64,000 bases of DNA, from NCBI RefSeq assembly GCF_026930045.1, contig NC_072731.1, positions 137,946,156 through 138,010,155 of the forward strand, given 5' to 3'. The notes beneath the pieces were generated by a model. It was not told the DNA's origin and did no database searches. It saw only the letters and a list, made by a program, of their open reading frames with translations. Both the position numbers and the translations under genes were made by a program. Positions 35,725-63,126 of the stretch are shown here, one piece after another. Source of the stretch: Uloborus diversus (Eukaryota). The stretch's first letter is position 1. Every line of letters starts with the position of its first letter.

Positions 35725-35961
35725 CTTTATCAGTTTCTTTCGCCCAAACTGTGGTTTCCCATCAGTGCCAATTGGATCAAGAATCACGCAATATTGACGA
35801 TTAGAGAGAGTAGTAATATTGACTAAACCTAACACATTTTCATAGACTCCGGGAATATAGGTTTCAGTATCTTTGATAGTGACTAACCACTCTTCTCCAT
35901 TTTTCCTTGTTTTGCCAAAATCATCAACAAAAGTTTTTTGAGCTTTGACATGAACTGCTTC
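35725..35961 (-). CDS. MVP: MVP coding exon 5
   Basis: Acceptor ttttatag, donor GTAGAA (weak but unique). Reads [79 protein letters not shown], 79 codons. Human has ...[58 protein letters not shown]. Confidence 0.85.
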
Positions 35962-37253: not shown

Positions 37254-37480
37254 TTTCTCAGTTAATACATATGCATTCACTACATCTATAACTTCTTCAT
37301 AGGCTCCTGGTAAATAGGCTCCACTTTTTTTAACAATCCATTCTTCCCCAGTTACCCTTAGCTTACCATCACGGTCTTTAGTTTCAGCACGAGCACGGAG
37401 TTTTAAAGCTTGGTTTGGATTAATAACCTCTGCTGAAACTGTTTCCACAACTTCAACTTCCTTTCTTGGCACAAAGGTTC
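37254..37480 (-). CDS. MVP: MVP coding exon 4
   Basis: ORF-track frame reads (G)[75 protein letters not shown]. Acceptor aattaaag, donor GTAAGT. Human has [49 protein letters not shown]...VILTEK. Confidence 0.9.
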
Positions 37481-38872
37481 CTTTAATTATAAAGAAATTC
37501 AAGTGGATAAAAATGTCATTTTTACTACTAAATTATTTTAGACGTATTTATACATCTAAAATTGATAACTGAAACATTGTACAAATAGCCTTACAACAAA
37601 CTTCAAGGGAGGAAAGTTTTTTTTTTTTTTTTGTAGTAACGGGAATTTTGTTGCAATGGAATTCAAGCAATAAAACAGCAATAAATTTGGGACTAAAAAT
37701 TCATTTTGACTAAACGGAAATTTTTTGTATTTGTTGTAACGGTATTTCACTGCATTTCCATATAAAAATCATTTGAAAATTCAGTAAAATTTCATACTCT
37801 TGTTTAAAAAACATAGCAATACACTTGGCTTTTGAAAAATAAATGGGAATTATAAAATTCATTAATTAGCTTAAAGTTAACACTAATTTTAAAATTCATA
37901 TTTAAGCTTAAATTTTAAGTTTAACTTTCAAAAGGTTTAAAATGTTTCACTATAACACCCATGAAAAAGAAAAAAAAACAGAGCAAACACTTAGCATAAC
38001 AAACTTAAGTGGTGGAAAGCAACTCCTTGCACATGTCACGACCAGTTTTATAGTTACAAACGTGATCAAAAAATGTAAATTTAAGTATCGCCACAGAATC
38101 TCTCATTTAGGATTTTCAAACCATTATTTAGTAAAAGAATTTTAAATATGGCTAGTAGAATTTTATTTCTTTAAGCATTCTTTTTGTACTTAAAAATAAC
38201 TAAATCTTAATTCCAAACTTTGTTATTGGCAAGGAGAACAAGAAATTTCTTCAGTCGCAAAATCAGTCCAATTCTGACTCCGTGAGCACTGGCAGAGTTA
38301 CAGACAATGAGGGAAAATGACTGACTACGACTTCATCTCTTGAAATTTTAAATCTTTGACTCCTGACTCCGATTTCTTTACCCCATAACCAGTCTGACTT
38401 CAACTCCACAGCTTGGTTTCAACCCATCTTCTGAAGATAAAGAAGTTCAAACACAATTGCTATCCCATCCTTAGCTCAAGAGGTTAAGCTTAGATTAAAA
38501 CAATACTCAGATATTTTAAAAGGATTATGGACAAACAACATAAGCATTTAAAGTAGCCAATTCCTGATAGCTTGAAGCCTTAAAACTCAAATATTCCTGT
38601 GTCTCAAACTTTTTGTTGGGTCCCAAACTCCAGAGCAGGCTGAGGGAACTTTCCTTAACTCAAACTACCAATATTTCGAAAATTTTCAAATGGTCCCTTG
38701 GGACTTCCAAGTTATTGGGAGTTGACTGTATAGTTGATTAACACTTTTTTTCAGTATTTTATATGCCTGAAATACTCAAGGCTTCAAAACCTAAATTAAG
38801 AAAAAGAATTGGTTCCACAAGACCTCACACCACAAATTTAAGAACTGCAAAAAATTTTTTTTCTAAAATTAC

Positions 38873-38993
38873 CAGGGCCTTCAAAAAGCCATTCATCTCC
38901 CGCTACATGTTTTACATCCCCATCTTCAAAATCTCGAACAGCTTTTAGTCTCAGAGCACTGTTTGAAGGAACAACAGTTAAGGGTGTGACATC
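38873..38993 (-). CDS. MVP: MVP coding exon 3
   Basis: Acceptor ttttcag, donor GTAATT. Reads [40 protein letters not shown](G). Human has [42 protein letters not shown]. Confidence 0.88.
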
Positions 38994-41169
38994 CTGAAAA
39001 GAAAAGGTGAACTAGATTTACAAAACTGTTAAAGTTTTAAAAGATTTATTATGGACTAGCAAAAATACCCGGCATTGCCTGGGTCTGTAATGATTATGAG
39101 AAACAACCGCCACTTTTATTCATTTTCTGCTTTAACAGAAATAACTCAAAACACATCGCTTTGACATGATTGAAAATCGAGCTTCCTCCCCACCCATAAA
39201 AGTAAAATGACAATAATATGAAAAACAAAATAGTATCCTTTTATAAACGAAAAAACGACACTTAAGCATCTACAAATTTGAAGAATTTCCAAAGTATGAA
39301 ATTAAACTTCATTTGTTTCAAAAGATTTATCAGTTTTTTTTTAACATAGTCTAAAACCTTCTCTATATTGCCATTGAAGTACAAACAGTTTTTCAAAAAT
39401 GTAGCCGCTCGTAATCTCTAACTGTGATTAAAAATGTTACCAAATTTGCGGTAATCATTTCGGGATACCTTGGATAAGACTCTCCCTCCCTACTTTGTAA
39501 AACTGTGTGTTACTAATTTGCATCGAAGAGATATTGTCGCTAAATACTGAGATACTTCTGATGACTATTAACTGATGCTACCAGAAATTTTTCCAAAATA
39601 ATTAGTAAAATTTGGCAATTGTTTGAAATTGTGTGCAAAGACAAATTAATGGACATTTTTGTGCTGTTTATGGATTTGATTAATTTAATTGGCGGATTAC
39701 ATTTTAACAAAAGTTTTAAAGATTCTTTTAAAGGCCACATTTTGGTTTACGTGGTGAAAACTAAGAAACAGTATTGTGTAGTCTTTAGCTTCAAAAACAG
39801 CGACAGTTGAAAAAATTGCCAAATGCCTTAACTATTGAAATCTTTCCGCAAAAAAAGTTTGGCGAAATTCCTGCTGGTCTTGAACAATTAGATGAAGAGC
39901 AAAAATATTCAACCATTATCAACAGAGCTGAGATGATACACTAAATACTAAATTGGGTAGGTGAAAGCCTTTATTTTACTTAGAAATTTCGAACAGGTGC
40001 CATCTTCAGCAGAAAAATCAGAGCTTTCAATGGACATATAATGTTCATGCGCTAGTATTTCTCCCCCTCTCAAATTAGGGAATTTATACGAAAATTGCCC
40101 CCTATGGGGGGTTTTGCCCCCCATTACGGGAAAAAAGTACCCTATGTGTTATTCTGATGCAATTGAGGTACCAGTAATGGTCTAAATCAGCGTTTGGAAA
40201 CTAGAAGAAAGGGGTCCAGATCCGGATTGCAGATTGTCAAAAACTAGACTGTCAAAAATGTTTTTAAAGCAACTGTATAAGAAAAATTTGTGTGTATGCA
40301 ACAATACCTTTATGCCTCACTTTTGTCACTTCTTCTAGTGTTTGAGGCAATTGCATGACTTTTTAAAGTTTTTAATGGTTAGCATAGAATATGATGGTTT
40401 TTCCTGGACCAGGATAAAAATTTTCAAAAGTATTCAGAAACCCAACTAAAATTACTTGCAGATCCCTGGTCTAAATATACCAGTAATGGGCTATTTAATG
40501 ATAATCAGTCAATTGGAAAAATAAATTTTAAAGAATTTTATCATGACATTATTCATTAACAAAAACCTCATAAGTATACCTTAATTTAAAGTAAAAACCT
40601 ACAAGTCTTAACTTCCACTAGGCTCCAGTAATGAGTATACTAAATTTCAGATGAACCAAATGGCCTACCTAATTGTGCAACTTAATATATATGGTTTATC
40701 ACAAAAAAAGCTAATTTTTCAAAGTATATTTTTTAAAAAACCATCAAAATCGTTATAAAGCAGTTCTTAAGGTTAACCACTTAGTTTCATTAGTAATAAG
40801 CCAAAAATCTGTCTAATGGGCTAAAAGGGTATTAATAATGGATCTGATGGTTGATTACTGCTTCTGATTATCAAATAAATTAAACCAAAAGCATGCAAAA
40901 AGTCACATCTAAGTACAAACTAAAGAGCAAACCAGCAAACTCAAAACAAGCTTGCATTCTAAAAAGAGGTCAACATTCTTAATAATGGAAAAATTGAGTA
41001 ACATAGGACATCAAGTCAGGAATTCAACTCTAAGGATTTTGAAGAAAATACTTCTTTTTCAAGAAGTACAATTTAAAAGAAAATGTATCTGTTCCATAAA
41101 AACAAATATTTAAAGCATTATAGCCATACTTCTGATCAATATTGGAGAAAAATCAATATCTTTACTTAA

Positions 41170-44100
41170 GGGGACCGTGGACCTTCCAAATAGCTCAAAT
41201 CGGTCAAAAATATGATTTTTTTATTCCGTGGAAGTAACAATATATGAAGTGTGCTGAATCGTATGAAAAAACCTCTTGTTGATCTGACGTTTTATCGCGA
41301 AGTTATATGCGTTTAAAAAAAAGTAAACAAAGCGTATTTTCCATTAAAATGACTGTAAAACATGTAAACAAAGTCGAAAAACTAAGTAAAACTAAGTGTC
41401 AAAAATGTAAACTTAGTTTTAATAAATTCTATCATTGGTATTAATGTCAAATATTTAGTCATCGTGAAAATATCTTTCGGGAGGTATTAAAATACGAAGA
41501 ACATGAAATGTAGTTGAAATTAGACTTTAACGTCATTTATCTCGGACTGGAAAATTCGATGCGACACAGATTGGAAAAAGCTCCATGCGACTTAATATTT
41601 GTTCGATATGCTTCAAATTTCAGAATATGATACTTTGGTAGTAGTTTGATAAAACTGGGTATGCATTAAGGTTTAAGAGAATTTTATGTTGCTTAAAAAT
41701 ATTAAAGTTTTGATTTTTATGTAATATTCGCAACAAAAACTATTGCTTTACGCGAAAAAAAATACTGTGCAGTTAATAATGGACCAATCCTTAACTGTTT
41801 AACCGCCGAACTACTGTTGGAAGATCAAATTTGAGTAATTTTTTGAAATTATGTCTATTTATGTCTAGTAAATACAGAAATAAAATAAAACTTCCAGAAA
41901 ATTTTTTTTTACTATGTTTTTCAGTGTGTTCCATTTTTGAAACATTGGCGCTTTGCATGAAGTTTTTTTTTTTCAGAGAATTTTTTTAAACTAAGAGGTT
42001 TTGAATGCAGTTTTTATCTTAGCATACTTTATTACGGAAAAAATAATATTTTATATTGCATTTATGTACATACCAGAATTCAGAAAATCCAATACAGAAA
42101 TATCTAATGCCCATGATATGAAAAGAAGCATTGCTGGTGAAGTCATTTGTCGCAATGGAAACATTTCTTAGTCGTATTTTTTTTGCACACCGCACAACGT
42201 CCCTGGGATGCAGATACAATGAAATGTCCGTCAGACATTCTTGATTTTTTATGTAAATGACAACGAGGCCCTGGATGACTTTCCACTCGTACTTTTCTTC
42301 TTAGAAGGTGAGTTGTTATTTCTCTTCGGAACTCTAAATGCTTCATCTTGACTTCGTGTAACTCACAATGAAGTAACCAACTAGCTACAACTGAAATATT
42401 CAGAGCATTACTAAAAAGATTCCACTACCATTTTTTACTCCTCAAATGAGGTCTGTAGCTCCCTAAAAGTTTATCCAAGACGTCCACGCCCCCCATTCCT
42501 TCATTGTATCTCTTGATAAGATGAGGTTGTGGCACATCTATCTTGCATTTCTGCGCATATGAGTAACATTTTACAGATGCAAGTGGCTCATGTGTATAAC
42601 AATTAGATGCTACTGTAACCACTGCATTATCATTCCAGCCGCACATGTACATTGATCCATCAGATCGATAGTCAAAATTTCCTCGATCTTCTTTAGAAAG
42701 GGCTTTTTTGGATTTCAGTGGACAATGAGCAGTTCGGTTTTCACGAATTGTTCCTGTTGCTCATACACCTTTTTTTGATAGCTGAGAAATTAAGTCATAT
42801 GATGTAAAAAAAGTTATCAAAGTATACTTCATGCTTAGACGTGTCAGTCAAAACTGATAATAGATCATTTACAAATCTGGATCCTAACTGCACACCAGGG
42901 GATCCTTCTTTTTTGCTTGAATAAATCTCCATGGAATATGGGTATCCACTTGAAGGGCACAGCATCCAAATTTTGAAACCGAATCTTATTGGTTTTCCTC
43001 TAATAAACATTTTACATGAATGCTGACCGTAGTAGGGATCCCTAGATTCTATGCTCAATTTTTCATGAAATACACCAAATTGTTGAAGGTTTTTACACAA
43101 TTCTTCGTAAATAGGGTATACTTTTCCAAGTTTGTCATTTTGTTTTAATTCATGATTGTCCATCAAATGAAAGTTGTTTTTTATTTTTCAAAAAAGATTT
43201 CGAGGTATAACTGTTGGTACAATTGGCACAGATGTATCTTCTGCATTGCTCCAATACATATCTTCAGAAGGAACAGAATGGTATCCACTCAATAGCAGCA
43301 AACCAAAAAATTGTAGGATTTCATTTCTGTCAACATCTATTGATTCTCCTTTTTGCAATGCATACAAGTTTGTCACATTTGCTAAGTGTTCAACATACTG
43401 CAAAGGTAAAATTTTAAAAAATAAATCAATTGGAGATAAATCCACTATATTCGGAAATGCGTGTTTAAGCGATTCAATACTTTTTGACGAAATCAGTTTC
43501 TGAAAGTTAGCTTTCTTCTCCCAAGTTAAATCCATTTTCATTCTTTTTCTACTTTTATTTCCTGATAATTCCAACTTTTTCTTTTTTTCCGTTTTCATTC
43601 GCTTTTTTACTTTTATTATCTAATGATTTCAGACTTTGTTCTTCCTCCGATTTTTTTGTTAATTTTCACGAGAGTTGGCGGAAAAAATGTCCACCTGTCC
43701 ACATACATCAATTGGTGTAATATGTTGTAACTCGTCTTCTAGAATGTCTTCTTCCTCAGTGATATTGCCTGGTTCATCACGGGGTAATTGGCATATATCT
43801 ACATCTGACAAATTCGAATCTGACAATGTCTCTAAATAAGCCACAGCTTGTTCTACAGTAAGAAATCTTGTAGACATTTTTTAACATTTATGAACAGTTG
43901 GTATACGTCAAACAGAATTTCGTTTCACTCGAAAACAAAGCTAGCGAAATATTGAACTGCATTTAAAATATGAAGAATAAAACGCTCACTAATATTGTTT
44001 TTTATTATCATGTGACAATGCAGCTGTCTGAGCAGGTGTGGATTAGGAGCCATATAGTTCGTTAAACAGTAGACTATTATTTTCTTTGCTAACGAAACAT

Positions 44101-44897
44101 CATATCCTTTCAAAATATAAACTTACTTAGTTTTGCCAACATCTACATCAGAGTACATTCAAAATGAGAAGAAAAAAGAAACATATATTACGAAAAATGA
44201 AATTTCCCCTTTAAAGTCGAATAATTTACTTCTTGGAAATTTGACTCCCTAAAAGCGCCAATGTTCCAAAATTGGAACATGTTATTTTGAAGGGGTACAC
44301 CTTTTGGAAATATCATTGTACATTTCTACAAGCCTTTTAAAATCATACGTTGAAGTATTTTTCACAACTATAATAAATATCATCACATTTTCTGAAAAAG
44401 CCAATTTTTGGTAAGTTTTATAAGAAAAAGTTGGAAAAAGCTAAAAAAACACTCATCTTTGAAAAATCGCAATAAATAATTAAAAATATATAAACAATCA
44501 AGTAGGAAATCAAAAAATACTTTGAAATAAGACTAAACTGTGTTAAAAAAAAACTTGTTTATTTTAACGTTATTTCTTGGGAAAATTTTCAGTTAAATAT
44601 GATGTTCCATTTTTGGAACATTGGCGGGTAAACGGTGGATACCCAAAGCTCTTGGCAATGTTCTGTTCTTTTATAAAATGCAAATTTTTTGAGAAAACAG
44701 CAAAAATTGAGTCGCATGGAGCATTTTAAAATTTTTATTTTAAATTTCAAAATTTTTGATTTTAATTAAATTTTTATATTGTTGCATTTTTTTTTGCTTG
44801 ATATTTTGCATGCTAATAAACTCACTAACTTTTATGCCCAGTTTCATATTTCAAAATTAATAAACAAAAGAAAAAGCTTTCAAGGTCCACGATCCCC
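41170..44897 (-). mobile_element. piggyBac-like DNA transposon, complete ends, decayed transposase
   Basis: Left end reads TTAA|GGGGACCGTGGACCTT (TTAA at 41166-41169). Right end reads AAGGTCCACGATCCCC|TTAA (TTAA at 44898-44901). The inverted repeats match at about 15 of 16 positions. Subterminal repeats GTTCCATTTTTGGAACATTGGCG occur at about 41925, 44255 (inverted) and 44605. Confidence 0.7.
42143..43877 (-). pseudogene. piggyBac-type transposase broken into at least 5 frame segments
   Basis: ORF fragments carry piggyBac hallmarks: ...ILQFFGLLLLSGY..., ...YYGQHSCKMFIRGKPIRFGFKIWMLC..., ...YNEGMGGVDVLDKL... and a C-terminal Cys-rich tail RCAVCKKNTTKKCFHCDK. Adjacent fragments are in different frames. 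Confidence 0.75.
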
Positions 44898-45387
44898 TTA
44901 AAAAAAAAAATAATAATTGAAAAATTATTGCTGTTTCAACTTCCTCAGAACTCAATAGTGTGTACTCGTTGTGCACAAATTAGCAAAAAAAAAAAAGCAT
45001 AGTTCAAAAAAACTATGGGATTATAAGAAACCCCTTTTTAGTGCAAACAGATATGAGCTTATGATAATAAGTATGTATAGCGGTTCATTTATTAGGAGAA
45101 ATTCATTAGAAGTTTCAGGTTTTACTTTCTCAATGGATACATTGAATGGATCGAATATGAACATAACAGAACATGAACATAGGGAGTGATCCTCAATTCG
45201 TATATGATTTTAAAAAATAAAGAGCTTAATATAACAATGTTCAAAAAAATTTGTAAAAAAAAAATTCATTAAAATAAAGCATATCAATTTCGAAAATTAA
45301 AAACAGCAATATCTAATTGTTAGAAAAAATGGACGAACATCCAAAACAATAATGAAATTACTTTTTTTAAGCAAACTACATACTTAC

Positions 45388-45583
45388 AGAGTGTATAATT
45401 TCACCAGGATACAATGGAAATGGATCTTGCTCTAACCTTACTTCAAAATCAGCATGCTTTAGTTTAATCTGACCTGTTTTATCAATTATCAAAGCATTTT
45501 CTTCACTTCGCATAACAGGATTGCGTATTACACAAAAGTGGCATGGTGGAATTATGATCATTTTTTGAGGTCCAAGGATTACA
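45388..45583 (-). CDS. MVP: MVP coding exon 2
   Basis: Acceptor cctttag, donor GTAAGT. Reads (H)[65 protein letters not shown]. Human has [24 protein letters not shown]...[25 protein letters not shown]. The phase joins the CA carried from exon 1. Confidence 0.88.
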
Positions 45584-46154
45584 CTAAAGGAGATGAAAGA
45601 TTTTGATGAATGTTTAAAGTGATAAAAAATGAGTTACGTAATTGCTGAAAAATTAATAGTTTCTATAGGAACAAATAAAAATAAATTAATAATTAATAAA
45701 AAAGGAAAGATGTCAAGATTTTGCTACACAACATTGCAGCCAGGTATGCTCCGGTAGGAAGTATCTGTGACCTCTCCATGTTTGGCAACTTTGGAGACAG
45801 TACTGCAATAGTACCTTTTTTTTTTCTTTCAAACTATGCCTAATATCTCATTAGATGTAGGAGGTATGTGCATTCTCAGTGGTTGAAAGTATCAAAGTAG
45901 CATGCTACAAGCAGAAAAACTATGGTAGTTCAGAAACTGAAACTTTCATTATGATGATGTCCAAAATCTGTTACCTACAGACCAATCATTAAATTTGCTA
46001 TTTATTAATTTTTATAAATACCTGCTGTCTTTTTATGTTTGTGCATGATGTTCTAGGTGTACATACAATGCAATAAAAGCAAAATTGATGTCAAATATCA
46101 AAATTTTAAAAATGTCTCAGAGTTAACTTTTTTGTTCCCACCTTTTGAGAACTA

Positions 46155-46902
46155 CCCAGTGATCTCTTGCTTATACGCGATCTCTGTTATACGCTTTTTT
46201 CACGTATGCGCGTTTTCCTCAGGGGTCCGGCCTGCGATATAGGAAAACAATGTTAACTCCTGTTCATTTATATGCAAAACCTAAAATGCACCTTTCACTT
46301 ATGCATAATCAATTTTTTCAAGTTTTATTGAAATCGTGTATTTACGCTTTGCTTATAGGAAGATTCGTACCTTTCTTGCTCTGTCTCTTGGAATGCATTC
46401 ACACGCCTGTATTCCATTGTTCGAATTCTTCCAAGAACGCGTTCTTATTTGCACAAGTGGGCAATTGGGGGTGTAATTAGTCATGTGATTGAAATCGAGA
46501 GGGGAGAACAGGTTACATACAAAAAGGTTGACGTCACTGAAAGTTGTGGTCAAGCGGCAAGGATTGAGGGTGCCTATCCAGGATCTTTTGCAGCCTTGTA
46601 GACTATAGCTTCGGTCACGTGACATTTTTTAACTTTTGGGGCGCTTACGTACTGTACAGTGCATAAAAATGACAAAACCTACAGCTTCAAATTTTACATT
46701 TTTATTAAAATACAATGCATAAACGGAAATTATGTGCATATTTATTCATTAGTATTAGTAGGGTATTATTAGTATTACTATAACTGGTGTTTACTTATTG
46801 CATTTAAGCTTATTTTTGGGTTTTTCACTTATGCGCGAATCTCACTTGTGAGCGAAAATTTCGTTGTCCTCTTTGGTTGCGTATAAGTAAGAGATCACTG
46901 CA
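46155..46902. mobile_element. Tc1/mariner-like MITE (748 bp)
   Basis: Inverted repeats CCCAGTGATCTCTTGCTTATACGCGATC at 46155 and GTTGCGTATAAGTAAGAGATCACTGCA at 46876-46902. TA dinucleotides flank both ends at 46153-46154 and 46903-46904. Confidence 0.5.
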
Positions 46903-48711
46903 TACAAAAAATACATGTATTTTAAAAAATAATTAAAAGAAATTAATGACCTGTTAATAGGAAAAAAACCTTCCTTAAAAGAGAACTTTTATTCATTCTG
47001 TCAGAAGTGAATTTACCATGTAAAAATTATGAGGGACACTGAAGGGGATTCATAAATGCACATGATAAATGATTTACATAGTTCTGTGATCGGCAAAGAG
47101 GCCCCCAAAAATGCATTCCTACGAGACTCAAACTTGTAAATCAGCTACTGTATTCCGCTATCGAATCTTCAGAAGACCTCCAAATTATTTTGGGCCTAGG
47201 GCCTCAATTTTAGTTAGTCGAACTCTGCTTTTCTGGGGCTATTTGATTATGCAATCTCGGAGTGACACAAAATGGTCTTTAAGAGTTAAAATCATAAATA
47301 ACCTTCTTTAAATTTTAGAGTAGTGATTTGACGCCTGGAAGAATTATGGGGAAATGACTCTTTCAATGGTGAAAAGACTGATGCCCTTTAACATGCAGGG
47401 TAGGATATCAATCCATATGATGATGTCAAGTCATAACATTGAATTAATATTTTATATAAAATAAGATTCAGTTTTGAATGAAATTAACACACGATTTGAT
47501 AATAAAAAATTTTGCTTGGGAGATTTTGAAGAGTGGAACGTGATAGGTTTTCTTACGTAAATTAATTACTTCAATTATTTTTTAACTAAATTCCAAACAG
47601 ATTGGCTAGTAGAGAAAGATCATTATCGTATCTTAGGAGATTAGAGAATTATTTTTGAAGCACAATGGGCCAAAAAAAAAAAAAAAAAACGCTTTCACCT
47701 TTAGCTGTACTAGCAAAAAAGCATGACACTGAGCATTGATGGATTAGTGATGAGCTTTTGTGTTCTTCCAAATTCCAAAAATCATACATTAATAAATACC
47801 AAAAGGTAAAATCTGTAGTATCAAGATATTTTAGAATGTGATAACTTATATTGAAATAAAAAAAAAAACTTTAATCACAAAAGTAAAAATTGTTCTTAAA
47901 CCCTAATTTTCATTAATATTAAGCTACTTTTATGATCCCTTCCCACTAGCCAATATGTGTTTTGCTCCACACTGAGGTAACTCATTTTTAAGAAACTCGA
48001 CCCAAAATGAAATGTTAAAATGCCGCCTCTGGATACTGATGAAAATAATTTTACCCCCCCCCCCCCCCCCCAGCTGCTGAAGATAGCAGTCTTGGCATGA
48101 ACAGGTGAATAATATAAAACGCAAATTGAGCAAAACAAATTGCACAACCATCTAGACATCAAAGGCGGCTAGTAGCTGTGTTTATGTGTAGCCCGCTTCC
48201 GGGGAAAACAATAAGGCCTAGATTTTCACTCTTATAAAGATAGATAGGTAAATATAGATAGATAGAAAAATGTAGGCTTATAGAAGCAGAAAATATGGTC
48301 TTGAAATTAATAGAAGATTTAGATTTAAAAAAACTGTAGAAGGATAAATATAGACGTATATGGATATGTTGCGAGGTCGATTGGCCGCGAACATAAGAAC
48401 ATATAAGGAATACTTGGATATAAAATAAAAATCTTTTATTTACAATTTAAAAACATAGATGTCCTACATCCTGCAACCAGCAGGCATGCAAGTAGGAGAC
48501 AGAATCTAGCAAATAAGCGACTCGCTTATAAATAAATGTTTTTGCTGTTACCACTCACTCGGTGGCTAAACTTTTCAGGATAAAGTAAAATTACATGCAA
48601 ATTCGACTGAATATGCAAAAATAATAAGTCCTCCACAGATACAAATACAAAAGTGACGACCAGCAACAGGCTCTGTGCCCAGCTAGGCTGGTCCTAGTCA
48701 ATTTACAATCC

Positions 48712-49111
48712 TCAGTGAAGATCAATGGCCCTCTTAAAACTATCTACTCCCTTACTCATTACCACCTCTTCCGGTAAGCTGTTCCAAGGTTCCGCTACCC
48801 TGCTAAAATAATCATTTTTCCTAATATCCATGTTAGCCTGAGATTTAAATAGCTTAAAACAATGATCCCTTGTCCTGTTTTCAGTGCTAAACTTCAGCCC
48901 CGTAACATCTTTCATTTTAATAAATTTAAACAACTGAATCATGTCCCCTCGGTCTCTTCTTTACTCAAGACTATACATTTTTAGCCTTCTAAGCCTGGAA
49001 TTATAGTCTAAATGAGAAAGTCCATTTATTAGCCTTGTAGCCTGCCTTTGAACCTTTTCCAATACACTAATATCTTTCTTAAGATAAAGAGACCAAAACT
49101 GAACAGCATAC
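48712..49111 (-). pseudogene. CR1/L2-like LINE reverse transcriptase C-terminal part and 3' region (same element, interrupted by a nested insertion)
   Basis: Reads VQFWSPYLKKDISVLEKVQRQATRLINGLSHLDYNSRLRRLKMYSLE*RRDRGDMIQLFKFIKMKDVTGL...FFSRVAEPWNSLPEEVVMSKGVDSFKRAIDLH, the conserved CR1-type C-terminal tail. The 3' UTR extends further down to roughly 48230. Confidence 0.8.
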
Positions 49112-49157
49112 CAGGGGCGTAGCTAGACCCGACTTTCGGGGGGGGGGGTTCTTCTTT

Positions 49158-49220
<63 letters not shown>

Positions 49221-51642
49221 ATATATATACATTTTTTTAGTATTAAAGAAATGAGAGGGAGGTGTATCTTACATACTTTGGAAAGGGGTGACCCTATTCC
49301 GATACTTGTGTCAAACAAAACAAAAGCAAGGAATTTTTTATTTTTTTTAATGTTGTGGAAAATTCAACTTTTTTTCCTTTTTCCTTTAATTTAAAGTGAA
49401 ATTTTCTAGCATTCTCTTGTCAAAACCAGTCTTTCCAAATCAAGGGGAAGTCAAATATCTGATGAGCGTGTTCCGTTCACTTCAGTGTGACTGCTTAATT
49501 TAGAGGCTAACACACATCTACAAAAGCTGGCATCCCTGAAAGCTAATAGATACTTCCATTTCTGCCTGTAAATTGGATGTTTGACTTTCAATCTCATCGG
49601 TGGTCAGACTATAAAGACTATTTTTACTAACTTGGTTTGCACTAAAAGTATGAAATAAAATAAAAAAAGACTTCTTGAATTATAACCCACAAAAAATAAA
49701 ATTGCTTTTCATATCGTTATATTTATATGTTGCTTTTTATGTATTTACATTTATGCTAAATCTAAAGCAGTTAATAAAATTTGAGTAAAAAAAGTTAGGG
49801 AAGAAATATAGGCGGTAGAAAGTTATTCGCTCAAATGCATACCATCTGTTCTCCTCTCAAGTCTTTATTTTTAATTTTATTAGCCGCTTTAGAATTTACA
49901 TAAATATCTATTTGAGAGTGCAACAGCAATTTTCGGGTATTATAAACAGAAGTCTTTTTTTTTTTCTACTTTTTAATCCGAACCAAGCTAATAGAAATAA
50001 TCTAGATTCATCTCGTTTTTAAACATTTTATTCATGTAATGCTATGCAGTTTTTCATTGAATTAAAATAAAATTACCTTCAGAAGGGTTCGATGGGACTG
50101 ATGTTGCTTTGCAGACTGTACTTCGTTTTCTTCAGACGACGTTAACTTTCTCTTTATAGAGCAATCCTTTTCGTCATTTTAATTTTTTTTTTTTTTTTTT
50201 TGGTTGAAAAAAGCTTGTTATCGGTCTTGCTCGCTTCATTATGCAACAACTTTCACTTAGAATGTACTATTTTAAACAGACTGTACGTTTCCAAAAGAAT
50301 ATGCAGTAAATACTGGATGAAAAATCAATGTGATTGCAAAGGATACTCTGGTTAGCAAAGGTCGTTTTGACTATGACCTATGACACACACGAAATCAGAC
50401 CAACAAAAACCTCTATCGTCTCGAATTCCGGTTAAGCTATCATTTTCGGATTCAAAGCAAAATGATCTTTAAAGCAGCAAACAAAAACATTTTCTTCAAC
50501 TCAGAAACAGAGGAAATGTCTTCAAGAGCTGAGGAGGCAGTGGAAAAAAGGGAGAAATGCGTTCCACGAATAGGCTTTCCAGGAAGATTAACCAAAGGAC
50601 AGTCGTTTCGCGCACTTTCTTGGAAGAAAAGTAAAGGGGTGAAATTCACAGGTTTGAAATGTTAAGATGAACATTTCAATTTCATGTTTAAAGATCATTC
50701 AAGTTAAAAACCATTTCGCTCTGTTATCCGGATTAGTACTGTTCTTTGGTAGCTCTCTTTCTTAAAATTGAGATTCCTTAGAAAACCGAAATGATAGGAG
50801 TGAAAAGAAAGTATAAGTTTTTTTCAAGTGATGAAAAAAGGAAAATTGTAGAATACTGACCAAGTTAGATTTGCTGCAATTGCTAACCTCAAGAGCATAA
50901 ATAATGAATCCAAAAAAAAAAAAAAAAAAAAAAAATCAGGGACCAAAAAGCAATAAAAGACTTCTTCTTGAAAAAGATATGCTTAAAGTTTCTTTTACTG
51001 TCAAAATGATTCCTTAAACTCTCAATAAAGCACTAAATAATGTAATAATAGAATAAATACCTAACAAAACTAATAAAGAGGAATTTTAATCAAGAGCCCA
51101 CGTTGTCTTTAGTATCGATTTCAAATTTTCACCATCATATTTCAAATTTCTATAAAAAGTCTCTTAAAGCCCCCGTATTTCAAAACGTCTTTATCTCGAT
51201 TTTTTTCTTTAATGTGAAATTCGAAATATACAGATACGACTGTATGCAATATTCCCACTGTGCGGCTCATAAAATTAAACATATTTAACAATTTGCAGAA
51301 TCAATGACAAACAAAGGCTGCATATACGTGGATTTAACAAATCAATCTCATTTCTAAAGCGAAGTGTCAACTTTCACTCAATTATCAAAAAATTGTCGCA
51401 GCAGAGGAAGGCGTCTTTATGCTTGAGGGTCACACATGGAGCAGATTTTCAATGGCATTGGGGGGGGGGGGGAGCGAAATGAATTTTTGACCTTTGTTAC
51501 TCAGTAAAAAGTCGTTTTGAATTTTTTTCTTTTTCTTCTTTTTTTTCTTTCTCTTCCCTCTTTTTCTCTTTTTTTTTTTTTTTTGACTAACGTTTCGGGG
51601 GGGGGGGTTGTCCCCAAAACCCCCCCCTTAGCTACGCCCCTG
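49112..51642. mobile_element. hAT-like non-autonomous element (2531 bp) nested in the LINE
   Basis: Inverted repeats CAGGGGCGTAGCTAG at 49112 and CTTAGCTACGCCCCTG at 51627-51642. A perfect 8-bp target-site duplication CAGCATAC flanks it at 49104-49111 and 51643-51650. Removing the element rejoins the reverse transcriptase frame as HLEYA|VQFWSPY. Inside are a (TA)n tract, G-runs and no transposase. Confidence 0.75.
49161..49230. repeat. (TA)n microsatellite (inside the nested hAT-like element)
   Basis: About 35 TA units, seen directly. Confidence 0.95.
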
Positions 51643-51650
51643 CAGCATAC

Positions 51651-52320
51651 TCCAAATGAGGTCTTACCAAACTTCTATATAAAGGCAGAAGAACTTCTTC
51701 AGATTTGTTTGAAATAGATCTATTGATAAACACAAGCATCTTATTGACTTTGTTACTAGCTATGCTGCACTGTAGGCTAAACTTTAAATCCTGACTTATT
51801 AAGATGATTAAGACCCAGATCAGTAACTTTTTCTGCCTGACTAATGACTGAACCTTGCAAATAATAACTTGTACACTTATTTCCATGCCCTAAATGTAGC
51901 ACTTGACATTTCCTAACATTAACAGCCCACTCCCTAATACGATCTAGATCCTCTTGCAGCTGATTTGCTCGTTCTTCATTTTCTACACTCCCCATAACTT
52001 TGACATCATCAGCAAAACAAGTCATGTTTCCAGGAATATTTTTATGAATATCGTTCATAAAAACAATTAACAAAACAGGCTCTACCACTGATCCTTAAGG
52101 AACCCCGATTAAAATCTCACTCCAATTAGAATAATTTTTCCTTACAACTACCTTCTGTTTCCCTCTGGTCAGCCAGTTTTTTACTCAAATGAAAGATTTC
52201 CCTCCTATTCCTATATCAGCAAATTTGCTAAGTAGAGCAACATACAGTACCTTATCGAAAGCTTTTTGAAAATCAATGTAAACAACATCTACAGGCTTCT
52301 TATTGTACAGATAGACGTAG
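51651..52320 (-). pseudogene. CR1/L2-like LINE reverse transcriptase fragment (5'-truncated element, upstream part)
   Basis: Minus strand reads YNKKPVDVVYIDFQKAFDKV...GSVVEPVLLIVFMNDIHKNIPGNMTCFADDVKV...LYRSLVRPHLEYA. These are the FxDFxKAFD and F/YADD reverse transcriptase motifs. There is one internal stop and one frameshift. Confidence 0.8.
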
Positions 52321-52863
52321 ATACAAAGAGAGATATAGCAGATAGATAAATAGAAGTAGATGTTGAGTTAAATAGTTTTATGCTGCTGCCAAATTTAACT
52401 AAGCAGCAGTCCGAGGCAATCTTGGCATTCAATAGTTAATGGCACAAGAAAGTGAACCATCTAGCCACAGAAGGGAACTAGTTAAAAGATTTAAAAATAA
52501 AAAAAGCATTAATAACGCAAAAAAAAAAAAAAAATGATGAATCACTGCAATGAATTTGAGTTATTTCCTGATCTAAACCAATTATTTAATTCAAAAGTTA
52601 TATGAATAAATCCACCGTAAGTGTTAGATGTCTTTAAAAGGCTTTTTGCTATTTTTTAGAGTGATTTGAAAGTTTAAATCAATAGTGTCTTAAAACTGGT
52701 GTCTTGAACTTAGTGACTTTTTACATTGTCTGAATACTACAGTAGGATACAAGTTGTCAAATACCCAACAAAACAACAAGGTTAAGCAATAATCTATAGA
52801 CAAACAATGGATGAAAATTTAACAAAATGCTTCAAGAATGGTAAATACTGGAAATATACATAC

Positions 52864-53024
52864 TGTTCATTTTCCTGTCGAATATAAGTTTTTGGACCAG
52901 TTTCTACACGAGTTACATTAGTAGTTTGATCAAGAACATGCAAGTAGTAATATGGCGGTATACGATAAATACTTTGCTTCTCAATATTTGTTGAAGCTTC
53001 ACCAGAACCTTTGCCTTGAGCCAT
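52864..53024 (-). CDS. MVP: MVP coding exon 1 (ATG at 53024; donor GTATGT)
   Basis: ORF-track frame reads [53 protein letters not shown] plus two bases (CA). Compare the human N-terminus [41 protein letters not shown]. An acceptor-like ttgtttag sits 2 nt before the ATG. Confidence 0.85.
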
Positions 53025-53205
53025 ATCTAAACAAAATACAGATAATTTTATAGTGAAAGCAAAATTGACATTTTTAAGAACTTCCAACTTTTTTTGAAGA
53101 TTTGAATTCAACTGTACAAAAGTCTTACAAATAATAAATCTATTTGAGACATAAAAATATTGTAGTGGCTACGAATATATTGAAACATTACCAGCTTACT
53201 CAAAT

Positions 53206-53208
<3 letters not shown>

Positions 53209-53277
<69 letters not shown>

Positions 53278-53306: not shown

Positions 53307-54365
53307 GTTAGGCCATAAATTAGTAAGATGTTCATGTTTATTTACACAGACGTGTGTTTATTATATATAAGCCCTTGAAAGCAAAGATAATGTGAATCAA
53401 TATCAAAAATGCTATTCTTCAATTTTTCAAGGAATGATGCATGGTGAAGCAGAAATGCCATAAAATGATATCTTACAATTTACATTTACTTTTAAAATAC
53501 TGAACCACTGAACATAAGCCGGTTCACTCATGGGCTCTACAGTACTTTTTAACAATGTCCTGATATTGTGATAGCAAAACACAAATTCCTAAATGTTCAA
53601 AAGACAGTGGTGTTTGGAGTCACAAAAACAATGAAATGGATGTATAAGTTGTAAAAGGGCATGAAAACTCCCATTCTACTTTCTCTGACAGAATTAATAA
53701 ATATCAGTTATACATTTTATGTTACAAATAACTAAATATTTTTTTCCAATACACAAGAAGCAATATTTATCAAGGATTAGAATCATTTAAAAGAATTAAG
53801 TGGGCAAATTTTAAACGCTAAATAACATTGTAACATCACAAAATAAAATAAATAAAAACAGATATTTATATATAAAAACCTATTAAATCATAAAATAAAG
53901 TAACAATATCACAATAGCAGCTCTTCTTACGGTATTTTAGTGATTTTTTCAAAATGCAAACATACTTTGAGCACAAAGCACTTAAATTTTGAATTTATGA
54001 TTGCAATATGCCAAAGCAAATTTGTTTTAAACAGAAATTTAAAACTTCCAATATAATTTGCATGGAAAACAATAGCATGGATATGTAAAATAAAAACGTT
54101 ATCAATTTTCTTTTCAAAGAATATTATTATTTTTTAAATCAATTGTCTGAATAACCATTTAAGCATTTGTAATGGAAAAAAACCCTTCAATGACCAAAAT
54201 ATAAAAAAATACCCTTCTCAATCATACTTCTATTTTTCCAAGCAGACATGCACGAAGAGAAAGATACAATCAGCAGCCGCAATATATATGAATCTTGTGC
54301 AACCGCCTACTAATAACTTTATCTTTTTTTTATTTTTGATAGCAGACAGGATTTTGGTAACTTAC

Positions 54366-54420
54366 CGGTTGTTTCGTTTGTTTGCGTTGATTGCCTCGAA
54401 ATGACGCAATCGAATTATTA
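54366..54420 (-). other. MVP: putative MVP non-coding 5' exon (donor GTAAGT at 54364-54365)
   Basis: The minus strand shows a strong donor caaccg|GTAAGTTACC. It would pair with the acceptor ttgtttag that lies 2 nt before the MVP ATG. A minus-strand TATAAAT lies about 30 bp upstream at 54446-54452. This is inferred only. Confidence 0.3.
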
Positions 54421-54445
54421 ATGCCACCGTCAACCTAACAATAAA

Positions 54446-54452
54446 ATTTATA
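54446..54452 (-). promoter_or_regulatory. TATA-like box (TATAAAT) upstream of the putative MVP 5' exon
   Basis: Seen in the sequence. Its position fits a transcription start near 54420. Confidence 0.25.
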
Positions 54453-54660
54453 AGTAGTTTAAAATTCAAAACTCTTATTAATCACCTTTGAAACTAGATT
54501 CAAAACAGCTGAAAACTTTCGGAAAACTAATTTCTTTAGTGCCTTAAGTTCAAAATTGCAAGTTTTTTGAGGTTTAATAAAATGAAGGAAACCATGGAGG
54601 AAGAAGTTGTGCCTCTAGTCTACCCCGCCTCTTACTCCCCTCACCCTACCAATGACATGT

Positions 54661-54680
54661 AAATAAATAGATTTAAAAGG
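54661..54680 (+). promoter_or_regulatory. TATA-like motifs (AAATAAATA and TTTAAAAGG) 55-75 bp upstream of the ROGDI-like ATG
   Basis: Seen in the sequence. They lie in the ~300-bp interval between the two divergently oriented genes. Confidence 0.25.
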
Positions 54681-54733
54681 AGCGCGATTTCTTGTTTATG
54701 AAACTAATGTTTTATTAAAAAAACATTTTCCGA

Positions 54734-54766
54734 TATGTCTGAAATCGATGATGAAGTTCTTTCGTT
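54734..54766 (+). CDS. ROGDI: ROGDI-like gene, coding exon 1 (ATG; donor GTAAGT)
   Basis: Reads MSEIDDEVLSL followed by GTAAGT. An in-frame stop lies 6 codons upstream. Joined to exon 2 it gives MSEIDDEVLSLHQEFDWLLQEEVTVILEELQGIIV. Compare the human ROGDI N-terminus ...[30 protein letters not shown]. Confidence 0.6.
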
Positions 54767-57129
54767 AGTAAGTCTTTTCAGTTTCATTTTTACAATAAAA
54801 TATTCAGAATTCTACTCTTTGAAATGGGAGAGTGTTATGCTTTATATACCCCCTGAAGTATACAAATTTTAAATAATGCCTTTCATAAGTTGCATTAAAA
54901 CTAACGGGGATTATTCGATAAAGGTGCTTTTCCAAATGTCGCCAAATTTTGGCGATAAATTGGGACGCCTTTTAAATAAATCGGTTACTAATTTGTGCAG
55001 TGTTAGAAATTAATGATCTTTTGATCGAATGATGGCTTTTTAATGTTTAATATTGCCCTTTTTAATGAGCTCAAATACTCAGAGGCGCTCTGGGTGCTGC
55101 TGAGTTAGTTTTAGTAAATGTATTGTATCGATTCACAATGCATAGCCTTCACGTTTTTTGTAACGCCAATTCATACCACGGTCTGCCTTCGACCCTTTTT
55201 CAAACTTTAAAATATAGAGGAAGATAGTGTACCTTTCAATCAATTTTGAAAGCACTAAAGTTCATTTTATGAAACTATGTTTTGTGACCCCAGGTGCTCC
55301 AAAGTATTGTACCTAAGCCACAGGCCATGTTGGAATAAAGTAACAGTTTGAATAAAATGAGAGAAAGGGGGTTCAACCGAAGCAAGCACTGCGACCAGAA
55401 GTCTATTGTACTAGTCCCCAAACAGAAGTCTTAAAACAGACCAATAGCTGAAGCAAAATTTAACGAACACCTAATAGGAATGTTATGAATCACCTATGAT
55501 TCAAGCAAATGAGGACCAAGGCATTCGAACCTATAGGCCAGTGGTTCCCAACCAGCGAGAAGTTTTCAAGGGGTTCGCAAAAAAAAAAAAATATTGTAAT
55601 GGCAGATTTATCATGCCTGTTTCTGATAAAGTTTCATGTTCAAGCAGTTTTAAGCAAATTTTGCTCTTTTTTATTCATTTGGCTCTCACACATTCAATAC
55701 TCTTAGCATGAAAATATTTCATACTTCCTGACATATTTTACATTTAAATAATTTAGTTTGTTGTTGCAAACTGCCAGTTTTAGCGCTTCCATTGAGAATG
55801 ATAGCCCTGAAGCCATGCTAAAAAAGCTCTACTTATGAATACAATGCCTGCAGATGAAAGAATTTGAAAGCGTTCGTTTCTTCAGAAGCGTTTTATCGGA
55901 AAGATTGATTAAAGTTGATGAAAACATCACATGGAGCATATGCGAGCATCTAAAATTATTTTGTTTTTTAGTTTCTTTACCATTTGAGTCTGGTGAAGAG
56001 CTATCCCTTTTCTCTTGTGTTGAGTCAATGCATATAAGTGAGATTTCGCTGTTATTAGTTGCTATAATTTTCTACATAGACTACAATTTACTTCGAGCTG
56101 TATTGTTGAAAAAGGAAAAGTTTGGCTAGCAACTAAAAAACACCACAGGAAGTGTGAAAAATTAATTGAGCGCTATAGAAAATTTTGTGGTTGAAAGTTT
56201 GGCATTATGAGGTTTACTCAGTAAAAAAAATATAATTAACCATGCAACATAATTTCTGCTTATATGTAAATAAAGAATTAATGAAATTTGTATAGAAAAT
56301 TACTCTTGTAGTAAGTGAGCTTAAAAATATTTATTTTGATAAAAATTACCTTTTGTGTAAAAATTAGAGTAAATGTGTATATTGAAAATAGACTCTTCTA
56401 TTATTTTCAATGTACGCATTCTTCACAATTACAAGAAAATTCTCCAACAATCAGACGATTAATGTGCAGGGTATATTTTTATCAAACAGCTAGGCACATA
56501 GTTCTTTTCAGGAAGACTTAAACATAAAGATATTTCTCATTTTACTGTAAGAAAAAAGTTCATTTAGTTAATCTGAGACAGTTCCCTGAAAGGTATTTTG
56601 AAGGTCATTCTTTAATTGACTTCTTATTTAGTTAAAATATTTATGAATGTACCCTTGTGTCAGGAAAATTTCAGATAATCTTTGAATCTCTTTGTTCCAC
56701 AAATATCACATTTTAAAAATTTTTTCAAAGTTGATTGAAGCTCAACATGGAATAATCAATGCGTTTATTTTTTGGTGAATTTATTTTGCATTTTATTTTT
56801 TAGCAATCATTTTAAGTTTGTAGCAATATTTGTAATTCTATATTTTGCAATTATGTTTTCGTTCTACTTATAAATTATGTAACAACATCAAACTAAAAAA
56901 GATCTCCCAAATTTTACTGTCTGTGTGTGTGTGCGCACATTTTTTCTTTTTACTTGTTACTAAATACCTAGTCCCCAAGGGGTTTGCTGACGTCTTTCAG
57001 AGTTTGGAAGGGGTTTGCATTTTGCAGGAAAGAAAAGGTTGGGAACCTCTGTTAGGCAAAAAACACTTCAGAATCACACATGATGTGAGTAACAGTTTCC
57101 TCAAAAAAGAGGCAACCCCAGAAAGTTGG

Positions 57130-59180: not shown

Positions 59181-59252
59181 CATCAAGAATTTGATTGGCT
59201 TCTTCAGGAAGAAGTTACTGTAATTTTGGAGGAATTACAAGGCATTATAGTT
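59181..59252 (+). CDS. ROGDI: ROGDI-like coding exon 2
   Basis: Acceptor catacag, donor GTAAGT. Reads HQEFDWLLQEEVTVILEELQGIIV. Confidence 0.65.
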
Positions 59253-63039: not shown

Positions 63040-63126
63040 GGAATGTGCAAGGAGATTTTCCACTCCAGTTTCACATGATCCTGAATCTCTTGTCAAAAAT
63101 GAAAAATTTCTCCTTACTAATACAAG
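63040..63126 (+). CDS. ROGDI: ROGDI-like candidate coding exon (phase does not join exon 2 directly)
   Basis: Acceptor ttttctag. The frame from 63041 reads NVQGDFPTPVSHDPESLVKNEKFLLTNT(R). Human ROGDI has [25 protein letters not shown]. The donor GTTAGC is weak. The incoming phase needs 2 bases that exon 2, which ends in phase 0, does not supply. Confidence 0.4.

What the first reader, a model, noticed from the sequence alone, without database searches (positions are those of the whole stretch)
54366..54766. Head-to-head MVP and ROGDI-like genes with a shared bidirectional promoter of about 300 bp
A plus-strand exon MSEIDDEVLSL with donor GTAAGT starts at 54734. A putative MVP 5' exon donor lies at 54366 on the minus strand. 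TATA-like motifs face outward on both strands and a short GC-richer patch (CCCCGCCTCTTACTCCCCTCACCCTACCAATGAC) sits between them. Joined to the exon at 59181-59252 the plus-strand gene aligns to the ROGDI N-terminus (EFxWLL, EEVxxxLxxLQ).
Basis: inference. Interest (0 to 1): 0.5.

Follow-up and report, generated by a model that had tools for sequence, protein, structure and literature searches.

The report
Divergent MVP–ROGDI gene pair, spider
In this piece of the spider Uloborus diversus genome, the major vault protein gene and a ROGDI gene point away from each other with start codons 485 bp apart, so they very probably share a compact two-way promoter; this is real and correctly spotted, but it is an ordinary kind of gene arrangement.

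Summary

**MVP, minus strand.** There are 14 coding exons (53026 down to 10593). The 877-aa product is 100% identical to RefSeq "major vault protein-like isoform X2 [Uloborus diversus]".

**ROGDI, plus strand.** The spliced peptide matches human ROGDI (E=4e-6). It has the same start and exon junctions as spider rogdi models.

**New detail.** It is plausibly the alternative 5' splice site used by X2, but this is unproven.

**Spacing.** The two start codons diverge 485 bp apart. The minus strand has no ATG for 343 nt upstream of 54249, the longest such gap in the window. A C-rich patch (GC-box, CACCC, CCAAT; 54623-54656) sits between the inferred leaders.

**Weak or negative points.**
- TATA motifs occur at chance level.
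- There is no CpG island.
- The adjacency is absent in Nephila, Trichonephila, Caerostris and Oedothorax.
- No transcription start was measured.

The parts
10593..53026 (-). MVP coding region. The 14 coding exons are 53026-52864, 45583-45388, 38993-38873, 37480-37254, 35961-35725, 30814-30683, 28350-28201, 27768-27503, 26635-26438, 21943-21802, 16724-16513, 15201-14958, 12916-12728 and 10751-10593 (including the stop codon).
   Evidence: The spliced model gives 877 aa. It is 100% identical over 877/877 residues to XP_054711972.1, MVP-like isoform X2 of Uloborus diversus. Pfam Vault, Vault_2/3/4 and MVP_shoulder all score above their cut-offs. It aligns end to end with PDB MVP chains at 1150 bits.
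52864..53026 (-). MVP exon carrying the main start codon (ATG 53024-53022). The acceptor AG lies at 53028-53027, 2 nt before the ATG, so at least one 5' exon lies upstream.
   Evidence: Sequence ttttgtttag|ATATGG. The same layout, AG then 2 nt then ATG, occurs in Nephila pilipes (tctattag|GTATG).
54228..54249 (-). Coding end of the MVP first exon used by RefSeq isoform X1. ATG 54249-54247 encodes MSAWKNR plus one base. The donor is GAA|GTATGA, and it is spliced to 53026 (intron 1,201 nt).
   Evidence: P0230 (XP_054711966.1, 885 aa) equals MSAWKNRN plus isoform X2. The peptide has a unique match in the window, and the join is in frame. The donor is weak: PWM score 3.9, rank 26 of 159.
54360..54366 (-). 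It is a candidate alternative 5' splice site. Using it would skip ATG 54249 and give isoform X2 (intron 1,339 nt).
   Evidence: It is the only GTRAGT on this strand in 53030-57000. It has the top PWM score (11.9) of 159 GT sites. The joined leader has no ATG before 53024. Its use is inferred, not observed.
54250..54592 (-). ATG-free stretch of the minus strand upstream of the X1 start codon. This is the probable MVP 5' leader and contains the MVP transcription start(s). Initiator-like TCATTT motifs have their A at 54583 and 54402. A TATAAA has its 5' base at 54452.
   Evidence: The 343 nt without ATG is the longest of 1,158 inter-ATG gaps on that strand in the 64-kb window. CpG density is 7 per 100 bp at 54360-54459, in the top 1.6% of windows. 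The transcription start itself is inferred.
54623..54656 (.). C-rich patch between the two inferred leaders. It holds a GC-box heptamer (GGCGGGG on the minus strand, 54629-54623), CACCC (54642-54646) and CCAAT (54649-54653). It is the candidate shared core of the divergent promoter.
   Evidence: 19 C in 34 nt, top 0.2% of windows. GGCGGGG occurs only 4 times in the window, with 0.03 expected in this interval. The function is inferred from motif resemblance only.
54698..54718 (+). Upstream ATGs at 54698 and 54707 form a mini-uORF (ATG TTT TAT TAA from 54707) just before the ROGDI start codon. Further plus-strand ATGs lie at 54652 and 54657. Together these argue that the ROGDI leader is short, with a start after about 54657.
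   Evidence: Comparable mini-uORFs lie 22 nt upstream of the rogdi ATG in Trichonephila inaurata and Caerostris extrusa. Inference.
54735..54767 (+). ROGDI exon 1 coding part, MSEIDDEVLSL, with donor GTAAGT at 54768.
   Evidence: The peptide is 10/11 identical to the first 11 residues of Trichonephila rogdi models and 8/11 to Caerostris extrusa 'protein rogdi'. It is the only non-repeat DNA match between 53000-55200 and the Trichonephila locus.
59181..59252 (+). ROGDI exon 2, HQEFDWLLQEEVTVILEELQGIIV (phase 0 at both ends). Intron 1 is 4,413 nt.
   Evidence: The same 72-nt exon occurs in T. inaurata and C. extrusa.
63041..63126 (+). ROGDI exon 3, ECARRFSTPVSHDPESLVKNEKFLLTNT plus 2 nt, with donor GTTAGC. 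The remaining exons lie beyond the window end.
   Evidence: The 63-aa spliced peptide matches human ROGDI (5XQH/5XQI) at E=4e-6 over residues 10-60. Its only Pfam hit is Rogdi_lz, starting at profile position 1.

Best explanation
The window is from Uloborus diversus.

**Layout.** The major vault protein gene (minus strand) and the ROGDI orthologue (plus strand) are arranged head to head. Their start codons are 485 bp apart, and nothing else lies between them.

**MVP transcripts.** MVP transcription most likely starts somewhere in 54250-54592. Its first exon then uses one of two 5' splice sites.
- The strong site after 54366 skips ATG 54249. Translation begins at 53024 and gives isoform X2 (877 aa).
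- The weak site after 54228 keeps ATG 54249 and adds MSAWKNRN, giving isoform X1 (885 aa).
- Both sites join the acceptor at 53026.

**ROGDI transcript.** ROGDI transcription most likely starts within about 75 nt of its ATG at 54735. Exon 1 splices 54767 to 59181.

**Promoter model.** The stretch between the two leaders is about 65-300 bp. It is centred on a C-rich GC-box/CACCC/CCAAT patch (54623-54656). It would act as one nucleosome-free divergent promoter serving both genes, as in other bidirectional pairs.

**Status of each step.**
- Shown: gene identities, exon structures, orientation, spacing of the start codons, and the existence of the two annotated MVP N-termini.
- Inferred: transcription start positions, use of the 54366 donor, and sharing of the elements.
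For: - **MVP identity.** The MVP model is 100% identical to RefSeq isoform X2. Isoform X1 equals X2 plus 8 residues. Those residues map uniquely to 54249-54228 with a GT donor and an in-frame join.
- **5' intron.** An acceptor lies 2 nt before the main ATG, and this is conserved in Nephila pilipes.
- **54366 donor.** It is the top-ranked donor of 159 sites.
- **Leader.** The longest ATG-free gap of the minus strand (343 nt; 1 of 1,158 gaps) lies exactly upstream of the X1 ATG.
- **ROGDI identity.** PDB human ROGDI matches at E=4e-6. A profile of the N-terminus retrieves proteins that all pass the Pfam Rogdi_lz threshold, with the domain starting at residue 14-17 as it does here. In T. inaurata the same N-terminal exons are followed by a Rogdi_lz-bearing gene piece.
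- **Interval.** It is single-copy and has no Rfam hit.
- **Motifs.** The rare GC-box heptamer plus CACCC and CCAAT are clustered between the leaders.
- **Human parallel.** The human MVP promoter is described as TATA-less with an inverted CCAAT box and a GC box (PMC3216873).
Against: - No transcript data were available. RefSeq XP_ models are computational, and I could not see their supporting evidence.
- The 54366 donor could be a chance GTAAGT; about 2 GTRAGT sites are expected per 4 kb.
- TATA, initiator and CCAAT motifs individually occur at about chance frequency in this AT-rich DNA.
- There is no CpG island. The local CpG density is only in the top 1.6% of windows.
- The intergenic DNA shows no conservation with nephiline spiders.
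- The adjacency itself is absent in four other spiders, so there is no evolutionary evidence that the pairing is functionally constrained.
Confidence: 0.74

Rival explanations
1. The two genes are adjacent and divergent but have separate promoters. Isoform X2 of MVP would start from a first exon inside 53027-54227, or from an unspliced extension of the ATG exon. The main MVP start would then be 0.8-1.7 kb from ROGDI and would not share elements with it. Only the minor X1 transcript would start near ROGDI.
For: Other usable donors exist on the minus strand at 53966 (PWM 7.6) and at 53484/53490 (7.1 and 6.8). These scores fall within the range of real donors of this gene, 4.1-10.3. Nothing observed proves that 54366 is used.
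Against: The conserved acceptor 2 nt before the ATG argues against an unspliced leader. The minus strand between 54227 and 53027 is full of ATGs; more than 20 are listed. In contrast, 54250-54592 is the longest ATG-free stretch in the window. The 54366 donor outscores every alternative.
Confidence: 0.17
2. The genes overlap head to head. The MVP first exon would lie to the right of ROGDI exon 1, for example with the donor at 56350, or the ROGDI start would lie left of the MVP start. The 5' ends would then cross rather than flank a shared non-transcribed core.
For: A good minus-strand donor exists at 56350 (AAG|GTAATT, PWM 9.3) and another at 56433 (7.2), both inside ROGDI intron 1.
Against: The RefSeq X1 start codon at 54249 needs an exon in 54228-54249. 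The plus strand carries ATGs at 54582, 54594, 54652 and 54657, which would burden a long ROGDI leader. No support for extra exons was found.
Confidence: 0.06
3. The plus-strand 'exon 1' is not the real ROGDI start, so the apparent pairing is an annotation artefact.
For: Exon 1 is only 33 nt. The window holds only 63 codons of ROGDI. Pfam scores this fragment below its cut-off (15 bits against 29.4).
Against: The same 11-residue start (MSEIEDEVLSL or MSDIEDEVQSL), joined to HQEFDWLL, begins independent rogdi models in T. inaurata (two loci), T. clavipes and C. extrusa. The exon is conserved at DNA level while its flanks are not. Full-length ROGDI proteins from other animals also have 13-16 residues before the Rogdi_lz profile begins.
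Confidence: 0.03

Closest known systems
Bidirectional (divergent) promoters of head-to-head protein-coding gene pairs, as defined in mammals by transcription starts less than 1 kb apart (Trinklein et al. 2004; cited from my own knowledge)
   Same: The orientation is divergent. The start codons are 485 bp apart, with no other gene or repeat between them. A GC-box/CCAAT cluster lies centrally, and no convincing TATA box is present.
   Different: The DNA is AT-rich (about 33% GC) and has no CpG island. Transcription starts and co-expression were not measured. The pairing is not conserved in the other spiders examined.
Human MVP/LRP promoter and 5' leader
   Same: The human promoter is described as TATA-less with an inverted CCAAT box and a GC box (PMC3216873). 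Here, a CCAAT that is inverted relative to MVP and a GC-box lie upstream of the inferred MVP leader. Alternative splicing of the human MVP 5' leader has also been reported (Holzmann et al. 2001; from memory, not checked here).
   Different: Human MVP is at 16p11.2 and is not paired with ROGDI (16p13.3, from my own knowledge). In the spider, the variant changes the protein N-terminus by 8 residues rather than adding a uORF. No sequence similarity between the promoters was tested or is expected.
ROGDI / Rogdi_lz family (PF10259; human ROGDI structures 5XQH and 5XQI)
   Same: The N-terminal helix motif EFxWLLxEEV and the following segment align with the human protein. The exon structure is shared with spider rogdi models.
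   Different: Only the first 63 codons are in the window. The rest of the gene could not be examined.

Membership tests
Major vault protein (MVP) | Vault repeat domains (PF01505, PF17794, PF17795, PF17796) and the shoulder domain (PF11978) | tested here: met
   All five families score above their curated cut-offs: 230, 119, 117, 76 and 176 bits.
Major vault protein (MVP) | Full-length colinearity with solved MVP chains, including the C-terminal cap-helix region | tested here: met
   Residues 16-859 align to residues 4-852 of PDB MVP chains at 1150 bits. The sequence is 100% identical to XP_054711972.1.
ROGDI (Pfam Rogdi_lz, PF10259) | Pfam profile match above the gathering threshold | tested here: inconclusive
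   The 63-aa fragment in the window scores 15 bits against a cut-off of 29.4, but Rogdi_lz is its only hit and the match starts at profile position 1. The orthologous C. extrusa fragment, 116 aa with the same exons, scores 37.6 bits and passes.
ROGDI (Pfam Rogdi_lz, PF10259) | Significant similarity to an experimentally characterised ROGDI | tested here: met
   Human ROGDI (5XQH/5XQI) matches at E=4e-6 over query residues 10-60. The Trichonephila orthologue matches at E=7e-7.
ROGDI (Pfam Rogdi_lz, PF10259) | The remaining roughly 200 residues of the domain (beta-sheet domain, C-terminal helix) | not testable with these tools
   These exons lie beyond position 64000. In T. inaurata, the same N-terminal exons are followed by a gene piece carrying Rogdi_lz.
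Bidirectional promoter pair | Two genes on opposite strands, transcribed away from each other | tested here: met
   MVP exons are on the minus strand to the left, and ROGDI exons are on the plus strand to the right.
Bidirectional promoter pair | Transcription start sites less than 1 kb apart | tested here: inconclusive
   The start codons are 485 bp apart, which bounds the distance if the transcripts do not cross. Actual starts were not measured. ATG-depletion places the MVP start at or below 54592 and the ROGDI start at or above about 54658.
Bidirectional promoter pair | No intervening gene or transposon in the shared interval | tested here: met
   The interval is single-copy within the window and has no Rfam family match. 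The only ORF of 40 or more codons lying wholly within the interval has no coding evidence.
Bidirectional promoter pair | Co-expression or shared regulatory elements shown functionally | not testable with these tools
   No expression data are available here.
Bidirectional promoter pair | Conservation of the pairing in related species (typical of constrained pairs, not strictly defining) | tested here: not met
   No ROGDI lies within 13.3 kb upstream of MVP in N. pilipes or within 11.6 kb in O. gibbosus, where the neighbours are a NAC/HYPK-domain gene and EMC1. No MVP lies within 10 kb upstream of rogdi in T. inaurata, though 3 kb of that is N. None lies within 10 kb in C. extrusa, where the neighbour is ATR. 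There is also none near MVP in four unidentified eukaryote contigs.

The most novel reading that the evidence does not exclude
The MVP-ROGDI juxtaposition arose in the uloborid lineage. It would place a vault-particle gene and a gene for a V-ATPase-assembly-related factor under one compact GC-box/CCAAT divergent promoter. This would couple their expression. An alternative 5' splice site in the shared-promoter exon would switch MVP between two N-termini that project into the vault interior.
Probability: 0.1. Interest if true: 0.3.

Novelty: new member of a known kind. Interest (0 to 1): 0.1.

Why it matters
The main value is for annotation.
- It pins the window to Uloborus diversus.
- It fixes exact exon coordinates for the 5' ends of MVP and ROGDI.
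- It shows that the MVP first exon probably has two alternative donors, which would explain the two RefSeq isoforms.

Divergent gene pairs with a shared promoter are common in animal genomes. This pair is not conserved in other spiders, so it does not point to a new mechanism or to a functional MVP-ROGDI link. It could serve as a compact native two-way promoter for spider transgenesis if that were ever wanted.

Tried and rejected
1. **DNA conservation of the intergenic region with nephiline loci.** Only ROGDI exon 1 aligns. Everything else is microsatellite noise.
2. **CpG-island test.** CpG observed/expected for the whole window is 0.58. The interval is only mildly enriched and is not among the top peaks, which are transposons.
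3. **TATA boxes.** They occur at chance frequency, and there is no strict TATAWAWR match facing either gene.
4. **A non-coding RNA in the interval, such as a vault RNA.** There was no Rfam match at gathering threshold. In E-value mode only far-sub-threshold noise appeared. No tRNA was found.
5. **Fetching the RefSeq gene range of U. diversus MVP.** Neither isoform is on record in the contig index, so annotated UTRs could not be read.
6. **Literature.** No paper links ROGDI with a bidirectional promoter. The one paper that mentions both MVP and ROGDI has neither in its title or abstract (a mouse thalamic-circuit study) and was not opened.
7. **The short ORF MKETMEEEVVPLVYPASYSPHPTNDM (54582-54662).** I considered it as a coding exon or uORF and dropped it, because no evidence supports it.
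8. **Initiator, DPE and MTE matching around 54402 and 54583.** The matches are only partial and rest on Drosophila consensus sequences recalled from memory. I did not use them as evidence.

Full report
**Source and context**

The window is AT-rich (about 32% GC) and CpG-depleted (observed/expected 0.58). It is full of transposon remains. Six-frame reading and tblastn with remembered human sequences showed MVP-like exons along the minus strand from about 53000 down to 10600. They also showed one ROGDI-like exon on the plus strand at 59184-59261.

I assembled 14 MVP coding exons using splice-site and reading-frame consistency. The 877-aa product is 100% identical over its whole length to XP_054711972.1, "major vault protein-like isoform X2 [Uloborus diversus]". 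The window is therefore from the cribellate orb-weaver U. diversus. Its published genome has 33.8% GC and 66.6% repeats (PMC9912274).

All Pfam vault domains and the shoulder domain pass their cut-offs. The protein aligns end to end with solved MVP chains.

**The plus-strand gene**

- The ATG is at 54735. The exon encodes MSEIDDEVLSL and ends at 54767, followed by GTAAGT.
- Exon 2 is exactly 59181-59252, phase 0 at both ends.
- I found a third exon at 63041-63126. The rest of the gene lies beyond the window.

Evidence that this gene is ROGDI:

- The 63-aa spliced peptide has one close relative in the large protein database, a Trichonephila inaurata protein. It begins MSEIEDEVLSL|HQEFDWLL, the same junction.
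- Cluster mates include "rogdi [Trichonephila clavipes]".
- A profile search found "protein rogdi, partial [Caerostris extrusa]", which begins MSDIEDEVQSL|HQEFDWLL.
- The window peptide itself matches human ROGDI structures at E=4e-6.
- Pfam Rogdi_lz is its only family hit, although below the cut-off because the fragment is short.
- Full-length hits of the profile all pass Rogdi_lz, with the domain starting at residue 14-17 as it does here.
- In T. inaurata, the same N-terminal exons are followed by a gene piece carrying Rogdi_lz.
- Exon 1 is the only non-repeat DNA match between 53000-55200 and the Trichonephila locus.

The ROGDI identity and the 54767-to-59181 splice are therefore well supported by comparative evidence. 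They are not supported by transcripts of this species.

**The MVP 5' end**

The exon holding the main ATG (53024) starts at 53026, right after a good acceptor (ttttgtttag|AT). Nephila pilipes has the same layout. An upstream 5' exon is therefore expected.

It is the only GTRAGT on that strand in 53030-57000. It is also the best of 159 GT sites under a PWM built from this locus's own 16 donors. Chance alone would give about two GTRAGT sites in 4 kb.

The decisive extra information is RefSeq isoform X1 (XP_054711966.1, 885 aa). It is X2 with MSAWKNRN added at the N-terminus. That peptide maps uniquely to the minus strand at 54249-54228, followed by GTATGA. It joins 53026 in frame.

This donor is weak (PWM 3.9, rank 26 of 159). 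I take that as a hint that transcript evidence underlies the model, but I could not check this.

X2 needs a transcript that lacks ATG 54249. The simplest way is to use the strong 54366 donor of the same exon. The resulting leader has no ATG before 53024.

**Where transcription probably starts**

- On the minus strand there is no ATG from 54595 down to 54249. This 343-nt gap is the longest of 1,158 inter-ATG gaps on that strand in the whole window.
- That fits a 5' leader under selection against upstream AUGs. It bounds the MVP start to about 54250-54592.
- On the plus strand, ATGs lie at 54582, 54594, 54652, 54657, 54698 and 54707 before the ROGDI ATG. The ROGDI leader is therefore probably short, starting after about 54657.
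- A mini-uORF beginning ATGTT lies 22-28 nt upstream of the rogdi ATG in Uloborus, Trichonephila and Caerostris.
It contains a GC-box heptamer that occurs only four times in the window, plus CACCC and CCAAT.
- The human MVP promoter is described as TATA-less with an inverted CCAAT box and a GC box (PMC3216873). This is a resemblance, not a test.

Weak or negative points:

- TATA-like motifs are at chance level.
- CpG density is only mildly raised.
- The interval is single-copy and holds no recognisable RNA gene.

**Conservation of the pairing**

I looked on both sides in other genomes.

- From the MVP side, there is no rogdi exon within 13.3 kb in N. pilipes.
- There is also none within 11.6 kb in Oedothorax gibbosus, where the neighbours are a NAC/HYPK-domain gene and EMC1.
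- From the rogdi side, there is no MVP within 10 kb in T. inaurata, where 3 kb of the sequence is unresolved.
- There is none within 10 kb in Caerostris extrusa, where ATR is the divergent neighbour 8.3 kb away.
- Four unidentified eukaryotic contigs with MVP also lack ROGDI nearby.
- The T. clavipes contig was uninformative.

Among the spiders tested, the juxtaposition was seen only in Uloborus. The pairing is therefore either derived in that lineage or lost in araneoids. No paper mentions it.

**Verdict**

The sequence features are real, with coordinates slightly off. The gene identities are right, and the two genes are truly head to head with start codons 485 bp apart. A shared compact divergent promoter is the most likely reading (about 0.74).

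Transcription starts, sharing of elements and use of the 54366 donor remain inferred.

This is an ordinary instance of a well-known arrangement in an already annotated genome, and the pairing is not conserved. Interest is low.

Noticed in passing
window 54228-54366 (minus strand): The two RefSeq MVP isoforms differ only by an 8-residue N-terminal extension (MSAWKNRN). It is encoded between the strong donor after 54366 and the weak donor after 54228. This looks like alternative 5' splice-site choice within the first exon that also switches the start codon.
   Followed up: partly
window 54698-54718; L002 about 3120-3144; L012 about 9975-10000: A 3-7 codon mini-uORF beginning ATGTT(T/G) lies 22-28 nt upstream of the rogdi start codon in Uloborus (MFY*), Trichonephila inaurata (MFEKR*) and Caerostris extrusa (MLVKRR*). 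It may be a conserved translational control element or a chance similarity.
   Followed up: no
window 19310-20389 (+), inside the MVP intron between 21802 and 16724: An uninterrupted 360-aa mariner/Mos1-type transposase ORF (Pfam Transposase_1, HTH_48, DDE_3) lies in the most GC- and CpG-rich part of the window (19150-20500). It may be a recently active element.
   Followed up: partly
window 60083-61007 (-), inside ROGDI intron 2: A second mariner-type transposase copy. It has a 292-aa ORF with HTH_48 and Transposase_1, then a frameshift.
   Followed up: partly
window 42428-43880 (-), MVP intron between 45388 and 38993: A piggyBac-type transposase (Pfam DDE_Tnp_1_7) is split over three frames, so it is a decayed copy.
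   Followed up: partly
window 51635-52094 and 48715-49122 (-), MVP intron between 52864 and 45583: Putative retroelement fragments. The 51780-52094 piece has a weak RVT_1 match (23.6 bits, below the cut-off). The tested part of the 48715-49122 piece had no Pfam match.
   Followed up: partly
window 53205-53310, 49160-49230, 59700-59790: Long (TA)n microsatellites. The first lies in the MVP 5' intron. They produce spurious miRNA-like Rfam hits and spurious TATA matches.
   Followed up: yes
window 28920-28977 (+): A tRNA-like Rfam match just above threshold (32.4 bits against 29) that ARAGORN does not call. It is probably a tRNA-derived repeat in an MVP intron.
   Followed up: no
L001 13250-13290 and 13340-13380 (Nephila pilipes): The acceptor and start-codon segment of the MVP ATG exon is locally duplicated about 90 bp upstream (tgtaccattct.tattagg.atgacaccacctaagg).
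   Followed up: no
L012 1-1727 (Caerostris extrusa); L010 3835-8375 (Oedothorax gibbosus): In other spiders the divergent upstream neighbour of rogdi is ATR (8.3 kb away). The upstream neighbours of MVP are a NAC/HYPK-domain gene and EMC1. The Uloborus pairing therefore reflects a rearrangement.
   Followed up: partly
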